Source: a phage. From it: a stretch of 64,000 nt of DNA. The notes under the pieces were generated by a model. It had not been told where the DNA came from, made no database searches, and saw only the letters and a program-made list of their open reading frames with translations. The stretch lies in NCBI GenBank assembly GCA_037431425.1, contig GCA_037431425.1_4129.1. One strand, written 5' to 3'. Positions 4,918-6,831 of this stretch are shown here, one piece after another (the stretch's first letter is position 1; each line of letters opens with the position of its first letter). The position numbers were made by a program, and so were the translations under genes.

Positions 4918-5092
4918 GACATTCGATGAGTGGTATCAAATACATTACAATATAAATGCAGCAGATATATACTATTTTAAGCTTGAATTGTATATATCAT
5001 TGCGTGACCCAGTTGAGTACTATAACAACATTATCAATTGTGATGATTTTGGTACATATTTTAGTATTGCAGTTATGGATAAAATAAGATGA
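4907..5092 (+). CDS. hypothetical small protein
   Basis: Track ORF. Confidence 0.45.
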   Translation: MQPKTFDEWYQIHYNINAADIYYFKLELYISLRDPVEYYNNIINCDDFGTYFSIAVMDKIR

Positions 5093-5259
5093 CACACAAA
5101 GAATGGTTAGATGAACTAAAGTTCAAACATGATCATTTTGGCCTTGGTATACGCCAGAGTCATTATGATGTGTTAAAAGATAAACAACTTTTCAAATCAT
5201 TAGTACTTGATGAGGATAGTAATCACTGGTACATCTATGAGCTTGCGGTTAGAGATTAG
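5089..5259 (+). CDS. small protein of the MTHxEW family (56 aa)
   Basis: Manually found ORF below track cutoff; ATGA overlap at 5089; N-terminus MTHKEWLDE resembles the tandem ORFs at 6345-6831. Confidence 0.4.
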   Translation: MTHKEWLDELKFKHDHFGLGIRQSHYDVLKDKQLFKSLVLDEDSNHWYIYELAVRD

Positions 5260-5269
5260 AAGATATAGT

Positions 5270-5482
5270 ATGAGAGTAATTATTAATCCTACAAAAAGTT
5301 TTATGTCATCAGTTTACGGTGCTGATGATATTATCCGCATGTTACCACGTATTGAAATTGATGGAATTGAAGTGCGAAAATACGGTGATTTATATTATGT
5401 TGTAGATTCCAATGGTGAAAAGATCTGTGATAGCTTATTCTTCAGTACTGAAGAAATGGAACACCTAATTATAATTGACTAA
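5270..5482 (+). CDS. hypothetical small protein
   Basis: Track ORF 5207..5482; in-frame ATG at 5270 avoids overlap with 5089..5259. Confidence 0.4.
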   Translation: MRVIINPTKSFMSSVYGADDIIRMLPRIEIDGIEVRKYGDLYYVVDSNGEKICDSLFFSTEEMEHLIIID

Positions 5483-5488
5483 CAAAAA

Positions 5489-5558
5489 GCGGCATCGCAA
5501 GGTGCGAGGTGAAACTTCCGATTTCCACCGCTGGTCGATTCGATTTCGACATGCCGCT
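5489..5558 (+). ncRNA. tRNA-like or structured element, tentative
   Basis: 7-bp acceptor-like pairing GCGGCAT/ATGCCGC and T-arm-like GTCGA-TTCGATT-TCGAC, but the middle does not fold into canonical D and anticodon arms. Confidence 0.3.
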
Positions 5559-5569
5559 CAAATTTTTCA

Positions 5570-5597
5570 TTGACAACCTCAGTATATTTGCTATAAT
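5570..5597 (+). promoter_or_regulatory. sigma70-type promoter (TTGACA-N16-TATAAT)
   Basis: Consensus hexamers; precedes ORF 5632. Confidence 0.65.
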
Positions 5598-5631
5598 CAC
5601 TTCAGATGAATAAATCCACGAGGTATCCAAA

Positions 5632-5832
5632 ATGACAAAAGCAGAACTTGTTGCATTATTGGAATCATACCCTGATGATGCATGTATTGAAATTGTACAT
5701 ACTACACGACATTTTGACATTGAAGATGTAGTACGTTATAATGATAAAGGTGTACTAATCATGGAACTGTGTATTGGTGAAGTGAAAACTGTACCTGAAT
5801 CAGAAAAACGTAAAAAAATTAATCAGGAGTAA
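5632..5832 (+). CDS. hypothetical small protein
   Basis: Track ORF downstream of promoter at 5570; SD-like sequence upstream. Confidence 0.55.
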   Translation: MTKAELVALLESYPDDACIEIVHTTRHFDIEDVVRYNDKGVLIMELCIGEVKTVPESEKRKKINQE

Positions 5833-5836
5833 TATT

Positions 5837-6109
5837 ATGCATTTTGAAAAATTCAACACAAGTCGTGACACACGCATTGATGCTCTTTATGAAACCCAAG
5901 ACTCAATTAGTATTCGTACACGTAGTGGTGATGTATATCATGACTGTACTATTGGTTGGGAACAGGGAAGAACACGTAGTGCAGAATTCGATAACTATCG
6001 CTTCTACCAAGGGGACATCACAATCTGGCCTGAAGACGTAGAAGATATTGCAATTGAAGATGAACATAAAGATGAATTTATCAAATTTAATCCCGAAACC
6101 GAATCATAA
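5837..6109 (+). CDS. hypothetical small protein
   Basis: Track ORF; SD aggag upstream. Confidence 0.55.
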   Translation: MHFEKFNTSRDTRIDALYETQDSISIRTRSGDVYHDCTIGWEQGRTRSAEFDNYRFYQGDITIWPEDVEDIAIEDEHKDEFIKFNPETES

Positions 6110-6114
6110 ATAAC

Positions 6115-6142
6115 GGGACAACACAAAAAGATGTGATATAAT
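6115..6142 (+). promoter_or_regulatory. candidate promoter for tRNA-Ser/Arg (GGGACA-N16-TATAAT)
   Basis: Consensus -10 with extended TG; weaker -35; 10 nt upstream of tRNA. Confidence 0.45.
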
Positions 6143-6152
6143 TATTAGTACT

Positions 6153-6239
6153 GGTGAAGTGGCAGAGCGGTTTAATGCACTTGTCTTGAAAACAAGCGAG
6201 GGTGAAAGTCCTCCGTGAGTTCAAATCTCACCTTCACCG
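6153..6239 (+). tRNA. tRNA-Ser (anticodon UGA), type II
   Basis: Hand-folded cloverleaf: acceptor GGTGAAG/CTTCACC, anticodon stem CTTGT/ACAAG with loop CTTGAAA, long variable arm, T-arm GTGAG-TTCAAAT-CTCAC. Confidence 0.8.
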
Positions 6240-6246
6240 CAAAAGA

Positions 6247-6320
6247 CGGGGTATAGCACAATTGGATAGTGCAAGAGAATTCTAATCTCTAGGTTGGGGG
6301 TTCAAGTCCCTCTACCTCGG
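6247..6320 (+). tRNA. tRNA-Arg (anticodon UCU)
   Basis: Hand-folded: acceptor CGGGGTA/TACCTCG (one GU), D-stem GCAC/GTGC, anticodon stem AGAGA/TCTCT loop ATTCTAA, T-loop TTCAAGT. Confidence 0.75.
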
Positions 6321-6344
6321 CCTACTTCAATTAAAGGTTAAACC

Positions 6345-6509
6345 ATGACGCATGAAGAATGGATGAATGACATTAATTTTAGATATGCAGGTATCGGTAA
6401 CTGGAGAAAGTATCATTGGGAAATCATATCAGACCCAGCAGAATACGATAAACTTATGAATCATGAAGTGTATCCGTGGTTCTTTATTGAAATAATGGTA
6501 CGATTATGA
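6345..6509 (+). CDS. small protein, MTHEEWMNDINFRY family, copy 1 (54 aa)
   Basis: Manually found; SD aaaggtta; ATGA overlap with copy 2; near-identical N-terminus across three tandem copies. Confidence 0.5.
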   Translation: MTHEEWMNDINFRYAGIGNWRKYHWEIISDPAEYDKLMNHEVYPWFFIEIMVRL

Positions 6510-6670
6510 CACATGAAGAATGGATGAATGACATTAATTTTAGATATTCGGGTATCGGTAAATGGCTAAAGTATCATTGGGAATTCATTTCAGAGCCACA
6601 TCTGTATGATAAACTTATCAACGATTCTGCATATAAAATGTACTTAATTGAACTACTGGTACGAACATGA
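6506..6670 (+). CDS. small protein, MTHEEWMNDINFRY family, copy 2 (54 aa)
   Basis: Tandem paralog; ATGA overlaps on both sides. Confidence 0.5.
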   Translation: MTHEEWMNDINFRYSGIGKWLKYHWEFISEPHLYDKLINDSAYKMYLIELLVRT

Positions 6671-6831
6671 CACATGAAGAATGGATGAAACGCCAAAAAA
6701 TAAAGTGGAATCCTTATTATCTACCATTAGATTCTAGAATGTGGGATGTTATACGTGTTAAGTGTATGTACAAAGCATATTTAAGTACTGAACTCGACGA
6801 AGAAGTACTGATGCATATCGTGCACCGATGA
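6667..6831 (+). CDS. small protein, MTHEEWM family, copy 3 (54 aa)
   Basis: Tandem paralog with diverged C-terminus. Confidence 0.45.
   Translation: MTHEEWMKRQKIKWNPYYLPLDSRMWDVIRVKCMYKAYLSTELDEEVLMHIVHR

What the first reader, a model, noticed from the sequence alone, without database searches (positions are those of the whole stretch)
5089..6831. Tandem triplication of a 54-aa ORF (MTHEEWMNDINFRY...) with a fourth diverged copy
Three back-to-back ORFs (6345-6509, 6506-6670, 6667-6831) are linked by ATGA overlaps and share near-identical first 25 codons before diverging; a related MTHKEWLDE ORF sits at 5089-5259. All are below the track cutoff. This is a recent local amplification immediately downstream of two tRNAs.
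Basis: seen in the sequence. Interest (0 to 1): 0.5.

Follow-up and report, generated by a model that had tools for sequence, protein, structure and literature searches.

The report
Old small-gene family in jumbo phage
The three back-to-back 54-codon genes are real and protein-coding, but they are long-diverged members of a small four-helix protein family of unknown function in 121Q/PBECO4-like jumbo coliphages, not a recent amplification, and their copy number changes by recombination between copies.

Summary
ORFs 6345-6509 (A), 6506-6670 (B) and 6667-6831 (C) overlap by ATGA, sit 22 nt after tRNA-Ser and tRNA-Arg, and are related to 5089-5259 (D).

The interpretation "recent local amplification" is not supported. 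The window is an Asteriusvirus (121Q/PBECO4-like jumbo coliphage). A, B and C are annotated as hypothetical proteins in relatives (121Q genes 125-127). All four ORFs match phrog_10970 (unknown function). Each has its own orthologues across the genus, with dN/dS of 0.19-0.29. A and B share 67% of residues; C shares only about 25% with A.

The locus is nonetheless dynamic:
- B is absent as an exact 161-bp unit from several genomes whose A and C copies differ from those of three-copy genomes by 0-2 nt.
- The window's D is a D/E recombinant that lost about 730 bp.
- ORF 4907-5092 is a fifth, remote member.
- Syntenic uncultured relatives carry 22-27 consecutive small genes, of which 18-23 join the family.

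The predicted fold is a small four-helix protein (pLDDT 89.5) with no informative match. Function is unknown. My best guess is early-expressed, diversified host- or defence-binding proteins, co-transcribed with the tRNAs. Interest is modest.

The parts
4907..5092 (+). Remote fifth family member (type H, 61 aa; phrog_31562), overlapped by ATGA with the next gene
   Evidence: It joins the family profile at iteration 2. hhalign of H-type against MTHEEW-type alignments gives probability 90.4%, E 1.4e-6, over 56 columns.
5089..5259 (+). Family member D (56 aa, MTHKEWLDE...). It is a D/E recombinant with the crossover near 5250-5258.
   Evidence: phrog_10970 E 1.4e-28. The 5' part matches ph0011 D, while the 3' tail and downstream sequence match what follows ph0011 paralogue E; about 730 bp are missing relative to ph0011.
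6115..6142 (+). Sigma-70-like promoter (GGGACA-16-TATAAT with extended -10 TG) in front of the tRNA pair and the array
   Evidence: Consensus scan, 10 of 12 matches. This is a consensus match only and has not been verified experimentally.
6153..6240 (+). tRNA-Ser (anticodon tga)
   Evidence: ARAGORN; Rfam tRNA 60.4 bits.
6247..6322 (+). tRNA-Arg (anticodon tct), ending 22 nt before gene A
   Evidence: ARAGORN; Rfam tRNA 62.7 bits.
6345..6509 (+). Family member A (54 aa), orthologue of 121Q gene 125
   Evidence: phrog_10970 E 1.8e-26. Orthologues are found in 14 genomes with dN/dS 0.19, against 1.1-1.3 in the off frames. AlphaFold2 gives four helices, pLDDT 75.8.
6506..6670 (+). Family member B (54 aa), orthologue of 121Q gene 126; the unit that is present or absent among relatives
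   Evidence: phrog_10970 E 4.9e-24. dN/dS is 0.29 against 1.0-2.4 in the off frames. B is absent from slurp01, PBECO4, UB, UE-S1 and A4.
6667..6831 (+). Family member C (54 aa), orthologue of 121Q gene 127
   Evidence: phrog_10970 E 4.5e-26. dN/dS is 0.27 against 0.9-1.35 in the off frames.
6496..6528 (+). A/B junction repeat (TGGTACGAnnATGACACATGAAGAATGGATGAA), first copy
   Evidence: Read directly from the sequence. The 33 nt recur 161 nt downstream with 2 mismatches.
6657..6689 (+). B/C junction repeat, second copy. Recombination between the two copies would delete exactly unit B.
   Evidence: Two-copy relatives lack exactly 161 bp and keep full-length A and C.
6844..6871 (+). Next sigma-70-like promoter (TTGACT-16-TATAAT), marking the downstream boundary of the transcription unit
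   Evidence: Consensus scan, 11 of 12 matches. The same 28-nt cassette recurs at 7253, against 0 expected by chance.

Best explanation
Shown:
- The window comes from an Asteriusvirus (121Q/PBECO4-like jumbo coliphage).
- The ORFs are five members of one family of soluble, aromatic-rich proteins of about 55 residues with a predicted four-helix fold: a pair H-D at 4907-5259 and a trio A-B-C at 6345-6831.
- The copies are old. Each has its own orthologues across the genus and evolves under purifying selection.
- The locus is remodelled by homologous recombination between copies, which gives genomes with or without B and a D/E fusion deletion in this window.
- In syntenic uncultured relatives the same locus holds 22-27 consecutive small genes, of which 18-23 join the family.

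Inferred:
- The conserved start MTHEEW is a helix N-cap (T-x-x-E) plus a core tryptophan. Its DNA, repeated at every gene start, supplies the homology for unequal crossing-over.
- The trio is transcribed together with tRNA-Ser and tRNA-Arg from the promoter-like site at 6115-6142. The 5' end of its mRNA would then be released by tRNA processing.
- B and C, which have weak Shine-Dalgarno sequences, are translated by termination-reinitiation at the AUGA overlaps.

Best guess for function (weak): early-expressed, diversified binders of host or anti-phage-defence proteins. Each paralogue would have its own target. The conserved N- and C-terminal helices would form the scaffold, and the variable middle (residues about 15-45) the binding surface.
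For: Identity and conservation:
- The best matches are ph0011, 121Q, PBECO4 and others. All 38 megablast hits are Escherichia or Salmonella jumbo phages; the records I opened are classed as Asteriusvirus or, for two, left unclassified.
- The trio is annotated as hypothetical proteins in 121Q (genes 125-127), BF17, G17, JNE01, WPEC3, WPEC5 and ph0011.
- All four ORFs match phrog_10970.

Coding status:
- dN/dS is 0.19, 0.29 and 0.27 in frame, against about 0.9-2.4 in the other frames.

Age of the copies:
- The A/B similarity mosaic is the same in every genome, including JNE01.
- A vs B dS is about 0.40 overall and about 1.5 in codons 31-45.

Recombination between copies:
- Two-copy genomes lack exactly unit B, yet their A and C copies differ by only 0-2 nt from those of three-copy genomes.
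- The window's D/E fusion is shown.

Wider family:
- An exhaustive HMMER search finds 22 clusters at 50% identity, all but one of them proteins of 43-64 aa and nearly all starting MTHxEW.
- L014 and L016 carry long syntenic arrays. All 51 profile hits lie on the + strand within these small-gene clusters.
- The H-type link has hhalign probability 90.4%.

Fold and properties:
- AlphaFold2 gives pLDDT 89.5 and four helices for D.
- The proteins are soluble by GRAVY and about 19% F/W/Y.

Transcription unit:
- There are promoter-like sites at 6115 and 6844, and none in the 22 nt between tRNA-Arg and A.
Against: - There is no expression, proteomic or functional data for any member.
- The number of promoter-like sites in the region is not above shuffled expectation (35 against 37.3). 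Only the quality of individual sites supports them.
- dN/dS below 0.3 among orthologues shows constraint, not an ongoing arms race.
- Evidence for gene conversion (codon-2 covariation, the G17 patch) is only suggestive.
- Remote members were added by iterated profiles on a small, AT-rich database, so some could be false positives.
Confidence: 0.6

Rival explanations
1. Recent local amplification: the three units arose by a recent tandem triplication in this phage lineage.
For: The first 45 nt of A and B are 93-100% identical, and the period is a regular 161 nt. Copy number differs among close relatives.
Against: - A, B and C each have orthologues in all sampled lineages, including JNE01 at about 81% nt identity.
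- A and B share only 67% of residues, and C shares about 25% with A.
- A vs B dS is about 0.40 and saturated in the middle.
- The polymorphism is loss of a diverged unit B, not gain of identical copies.
Confidence: 0.04
2. The small ORFs are not genes. They would be chance ORFs, an assembly artefact, or a non-coding DNA or RNA repeat whose 5' conserved block is the functional element (for example a recombination or homing-endonuclease target).
For: - The ORFs are very short.
- HNH homing endonuclease genes lie nearby in relatives.
- The gene starts are strongly conserved at the DNA level.
Against: - In-frame dN/dS of 0.19-0.29 against about 1 or more in the off frames.
- Length and frame are preserved in 14 genomes.
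- A confident four-helix prediction.
- Synonymous divergence among orthologues is not reduced in codons 1-15 (pS 0.30, 0.13 and 0.36 for A, B and C). The 5' block is therefore conserved at the protein level, not as a nucleic-acid element.
- The units are too diverged for assembly errors to create or collapse them.
Confidence: 0.03
3. tRNA-linked function: the proteins act on or protect the phage tRNAs next to which they are encoded. They might inhibit host anticodon nucleases or modulate tRNA processing or charging.
For: - The trio follows tRNA-Ser and tRNA-Arg by 22 nt with no intervening promoter.
- In all relatives the family sits inside or at the edge of the tRNA island.
Against: - The H-D pair is not next to a tRNA in the window.
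- In L016 the array starts about 300 nt downstream of its own promoter-like sequence and precedes the tRNAs.
- The flanking tRNA varies (Arg, Leu or none) while the proteins stay the same.
- There is no similarity to any RNA-binding fold.
Confidence: 0.12
4. Dosage array: the copies are functionally redundant and are kept only to raise the output of one activity.
For: Tight tandem packing with translational coupling.
Against: - The copies are highly diverged. Median pairwise identity is 19% within the L014 and L016 arrays, and C is about 25% identical to A.
- Each type is conserved separately across genomes, and gene order looks collinear between L014 and L016 on reading their translations.
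- This pattern points to distinct roles.
Confidence: 0.06

Closest known systems
PHROG family phrog_10970 (unknown function); 121Q genes 118, 121 and 125-127 and their Asteriusvirus orthologues
   Same: Full-length profile matches for A, B, C and D. The same genes in the same order are annotated as hypothetical proteins in GenBank records.
   Different: Nothing differs: this is the same family. New here are three points: the link to phrog_31562 (H type), the giant arrays in uncultured relatives, and the recombination history.
Host-takeover clusters of small early genes in large virulent phages (for example the Bacillus phage SPO1 host-takeover module, or T4 early small ORFs in hyperplastic regions). 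This comparison is from my own knowledge.
   Same: Many very small genes, tightly packed, behind strong host-type promoters, in a variable accessory region next to tRNA genes.
   Different: Those clusters consist mostly of unrelated genes, whereas here the genes are paralogues of one family. Early timing and any host-takeover activity are untested.
Viral multigene families and 'genomic accordions' (poxvirus K3L amplification; African swine fever virus MGF360/505). This comparison is from my own knowledge.
   Same: Tandem paralogues at one locus. Copy number varies between strains by recombination between copies, from 4-6 copies in the Asteriusvirus genomes examined to 18-23 in uncultured relatives.
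   Different: Accordions are near-identical, recently amplified copies under acute selection. Here the copies are ancient and diverged, and the recent events seen are contractions. No link to host defence has been shown.
tRNA-mRNA co-transcripts (the E. coli thrU-tyrU-glyT-thrT-tufB operon; T4 tRNA cluster transcripts). This comparison is from my own knowledge.
   Same: A promoter-like site precedes the tRNAs, and coding genes follow 22 nt after the last tRNA with no room for another promoter.
   Different: There is no transcript data, and the arrangement is inferred only from consensus scans.

Membership tests
phrog_10970 (small Asteriusvirus protein family, unknown function) | Significant full-length match to the family profile | tested here: met
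   A 1.8e-26, B 4.9e-24, C 4.5e-26, D 1.4e-28, each covering profile positions 1-55 or 1-56 of 56.
phrog_10970 (small Asteriusvirus protein family, unknown function) | Orthologues at the same locus in related phages | tested here: met
   The same genes occur between the tRNA pair and a 354-366-nt gene in 13 fetched relatives.
Recent tandem amplification / genomic accordion | Near-identical copies (little synonymous divergence) | tested here: not met
   A and B are 79-83% identical at the nt level, dS about 0.40. C is about 25% identical to A at the aa level.
Recent tandem amplification / genomic accordion | Copy-number polymorphism among close relatives through recombination between units | tested here: met
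   Genomes carry 2 or 3 units, and the A and C copies of two-copy genomes lie 0-2 nt from those of three-copy genomes. There is also a D/E fusion deletion.
Recent tandem amplification / genomic accordion | Amplification driven by selection on a host-antagonist gene | not testable with these tools
   No function or phenotype is known.
Translationally coupled overlapping genes | Stop and start codons overlap (ATGA) with a weak or absent Shine-Dalgarno sequence for the downstream gene | tested here: met
   ATGA overlaps at 5089-5092, 6506-6509 and 6667-6670. Upstream of B and C there is only GG within TGGTACGA. Coupling itself has not been measured.
tRNA-mRNA co-transcription unit | One promoter upstream of the tRNAs, with no promoter or terminator between the tRNAs and the ORFs | tested here: inconclusive
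   A promoter-like site lies at 6115-6142, the gap is 22 nt, and no terminator-like site was found on the + strand. These are consensus scans only.
Known protein folds or families (Pfam, NCBIfam, PDB, BFVD) | Significant sequence or structure match | tested here: not met

The most novel reading that the evidence does not exclude
The family is an expandable repertoire of small four-helix binders: 4-6 copies in the Asteriusvirus genomes examined and 18-23 profile-confirmed copies in uncultured relatives. Each copy would neutralise a different host or defence factor. The conserved gene-start sequence would double as the built-in recombination substrate that lets the array grow and shrink, making this a phage counterpart of the multigene families of large eukaryotic DNA viruses.
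Probability: 0.18. Interest if true: 0.65.

Novelty: new member of a known kind. Interest (0 to 1): 0.33.

Why it matters
As given, the finding is an ordinary cluster of annotated hypothetical genes, and its "recent amplification" reading is wrong. What makes it mildly useful is the wider picture.

One uncharacterised family of about 55-residue proteins occupies a conserved locus beside the tRNA island of a jumbo-phage clade. The number of family members there ranges from 4 in some Asteriusvirus genomes to 23 in an uncultured relative. There are clear traces of paralogue-mediated deletion.

Such diversified arrays of small early proteins are prime candidates for host-takeover or anti-defence factors. 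The family is small enough to test quickly by expression, pull-down and deletion.

Tried and rejected
Searches that found nothing informative:
- Pfam, NCBIfam and PDB-sequence searches of single members and of a 55-member alignment.
- A second large protein search with the 55-member profile added only proteins from the same contigs.
- Literature on 121Q, PBECO4 and Asteriusvirus genomes and a search on phage tandem paralogues and anti-defence. None describes this family. The CBB paper only notes 22 paralogous ORFs in that phage.
- Rfam on 3000-11000 found only the tRNAs.

Searches that failed technically:
- The search for related loci in IMG/VR. The family alignment was too diverse to seed, and two single distant members gave no confirmed locus.

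Ideas considered and rejected:
- Programmed -1 frameshifting that fuses the units. There is no slippery heptamer at the ATGA junctions, and this is the ordinary overlapping-gene pattern.
- An RNA or DNA element explaining the 5' conservation. Synonymous divergence among orthologues is not reduced there.
- An N-terminal metal-binding (X-X-His) reading of M-T-H. This was not pursued, because a T-x-x-E helix cap is the simpler explanation.
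Full report
**What is there**

The three ORFs lie exactly where reported: 6345-6509 (A), 6506-6670 (B) and 6667-6831 (C). Each is 54 codons and each pair is joined by an ATGA stop/start overlap. The related ORF D is at 5089-5259. tRNA-Ser(tga) 6153-6240 and tRNA-Arg(tct) 6247-6322 end 22 nt before A.

The repeat is not a chance pattern:
- Tandem Repeats Finder reports a 161-nt period with 81% matches and score 452.
- The gene-start motif ATGACNCAYGARGARTGG occurs four times in the window against 0.04 expected.
- Pairwise blastp among the copies is significant (A/B 5e-28, A/D 1e-7, C/D 1e-5).

Only A and B are close (67% aa identity; 42 of their first 45 nt are identical in this window). C shares just the first seven codons and is about 25% identical to A.

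**Where the window comes from**

Megablast places the region in the 121Q/PBECO4-like jumbo coliphages, closest to phage ph0011. Identity is 96% over 3 kb and 99% over the array. The records I opened are classed as Asteriusvirus or, for two, left unclassified. The trio is annotated there as hypothetical proteins, for example 121Q genes 125-127. All four window ORFs match phrog_10970, a PHROG of unknown function, over their full length. Pfam and NCBIfam give nothing.

**Are they genes?**

I collected the locus from 13 relatives and computed Nei-Gojobori statistics among orthologues.

| Copy | dN/dS, annotated frame | dN/dS, other two frames |
|---|---|---|
| A | 0.19 | 1.14-1.33 |
| B | 0.29 | 1.02-2.36 |
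| C | 0.27 | 0.86-1.35 |

Length and frame are preserved in all genomes. The one exception is a 1-nt deletion in C of an UNVERIFIED record, CMSTMSU. The ORFs are therefore protein-coding and under purifying selection.

**Not a recent amplification**

- Every sampled lineage that has the trio shows the same A, B and C types and the same A/B mosaic. nt 1-45 are 93-100% identical, nt 91-135 are 55-64%, and nt 136-165 are 77-87%. This includes JNE01, which is only about 81% identical to the window.
- Synonymous divergence between A and B is about 0.40 overall. It is 0.24-0.34 in codons 1-30, saturated (about 1.5) in codons 31-45, and near zero in codons 46-54.
- This is the signature of an old duplication, possibly with partial homogenisation of the ends.
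- Hints of gene conversion exist but are weak. Codon 2 is ACG in all three copies of JNE01 and ACA in all three of BF17. G17's A copy carries a B-like CTAAAG patch.
- Synonymous divergence among orthologues is not reduced at the 5' end. The conserved start therefore reflects protein constraint, not a nucleic-acid element.

**The locus is nevertheless dynamic**

- Loss of B. By the span of the match, roughly 16 of about 36 records lack one 161-bp unit. In the five such genomes I fetched (slurp01, PBECO4, UB, UE-S1, A4) the missing unit is exactly B, with full-length A and C retained. In four of them, A and C are 0-2 nt (slurp01, PBECO4, UB) or 2-8 nt (UE-S1) from those of three-copy genomes. 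For example, slurp01's C is identical to the window's. The loss, or exchange, is therefore recent and probably recurrent.
- The likely substrate. The A/B and B/C junctions carry the same 33-nt sequence, TGGTACGAnnATGACACATGAAGAATGGATGAA, 161 nt apart (6496-6528 and 6657-6689). This is the obvious substrate for the deletion.
- The D/E fusion. The window's D gene matches ph0011 D up to about 5255. Beyond that it continues with the sequence that follows a different paralogue (E) in ph0011, and about 730 bp, including a 504-nt gene, are missing. BF17 has a similar fusion with a breakpoint about 10 nt further upstream, which suggests an independent event (inference).
- Other paralogue types. Relatives also carry types E, F and G upstream, giving 4-6 members per genome.

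**A wider family**

An exhaustive HMMER search of 1.84 billion representatives found only 22 clusters. All but one are proteins of 43-64 aa, and nearly all begin MTHxEW. The distant ones are absent from isolated phages and come from metagenome contigs.

- L014 (13.6 kb) has 22 consecutive small ORFs at 7223-10639.
- L016 (from a 78-kb contig) has about 27 small ORFs at 4716-9428.
- Iterated profiles recruit 18 and 23 of these ORFs respectively. All 51 hits in a 360-ORF two-strand database lie on the + strand within the small-gene clusters.
- The flanking genes of both contigs are homologous to the window's at 25-75% aa identity, so the arrays sit at the same locus.
- Median pairwise identity within the arrays is 19%. 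On reading the translations, gene order looks largely collinear between L014 and L016. These expansions are therefore ancient too.
- The same profiles recruit window ORF 4907-5092 (phrog_31562), which overlaps D by ATGA. hhalign supports the link: probability 90.4%, E 1.4e-6, 56 columns.

**What the proteins look like**

- AlphaFold2 predicts four short helices: pLDDT 75.8 for A, and pLDDT 89.5 with pTM 0.64 for D.
- The proteins are soluble by GRAVY, about 19% aromatic, and range in pI from 4.35 to 9.77 across the family.
- Structure searches are uninformative.
- The near-invariant T2, E5 and W6 fit a T-x-x-E helix cap plus a core tryptophan. This is my inference.

**How it probably works**

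- A promoter-like site (GGGACA-16-TATAAT with TG) lies at 6115-6142, just before tRNA-Ser.
- The next strong site is at 6844-6871, after C.
- Nothing fits in the 22 nt between tRNA-Arg and A, and no + strand terminator was found.
- I infer one transcript, promoter-tRNA-tRNA-A-B-C, with the mRNA 5' end made by tRNA processing. B and C would be translated by reinitiation at AUGA.
- Timing (early, by host RNA polymerase) is inferred from the sigma-70-type sites.
- Function is unknown. I favour diversified binders of host or defence proteins at low confidence.
- Rivals are a tRNA-linked role and simple dosage. Distinct conserved types argue against dosage.

**Verdict**

The genes are already annotated and clustered in PHROGs, and their function is unknown. 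What this analysis adds is:
- evidence that the ORFs are coding;
- the recombination history of the locus;
- the fifth member;
- the giant arrays in uncultured relatives.

Interest is modest.

Noticed in passing
window 47291-55969 (- strand): Seven consecutive genes of 368-449 aa are mutual paralogues (24-40% identity, E 1e-7 to 1e-61) with RCC1-like beta-propeller repeats. This is a second, much larger multigene family in the same window.
   Followed up: partly
window 6844-6871 and 7253-7280: Two identical 28-nt promoter cassettes, TTGACTAAATAGTTCAGTNCTGTATAAT, each precede a short gene (0 expected by chance). The same cassette follows the array in most of the aligned relatives.
   Followed up: partly
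window 5487-5560: A GC-rich imperfect hairpin (GCGGCAT...ATGCCGC followed by a T-run) lies between ORF 5270-5482 and the perfect promoter match at 5570-5597. It is probably a terminator. The folding z-score is only -1.65 and there is no Rfam hit.
   Followed up: partly
L016 4386-4710: In the uncultured relative, a promoter-like sequence (TTGACA...GATACAAT) is followed by about 300 nt of GC-richer non-coding sequence with two T-run-terminated segments, directly upstream of the roughly 27-gene array. It could be a small RNA or a leader.
   Followed up: no
window 6247-6322 vs L002 3561-3642, L003, L006, L007, L012 2658-3182: The tRNA slot in front of the array is variable. It holds tRNA-Arg(tct) here and in ph0011, G17 and slurp01, and tRNA-Leu(taa) in 121Q. 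No second tRNA is annotated in BF17, JNE01 or A4. UB has a 525-nt ORF inserted just upstream of the array, the same size as the NUMOD4/HNH endonuclease genes found nearby in ph0011 and WPEC3.
   Followed up: no
L011 (CMSTMSU) about 3075-3235: The C copy has a 1-nt deletion in an A-run that removes its normal start. This is either a pseudogene or a sequencing error in a record flagged UNVERIFIED_ORG.
   Followed up: no
L017 8001-8490: A further uncultured relative (A4-like) has a three-gene array of different composition. A new type (P0021) precedes A and C, and B is absent. Units can therefore be gained or exchanged at the upstream end as well.
   Followed up: partly
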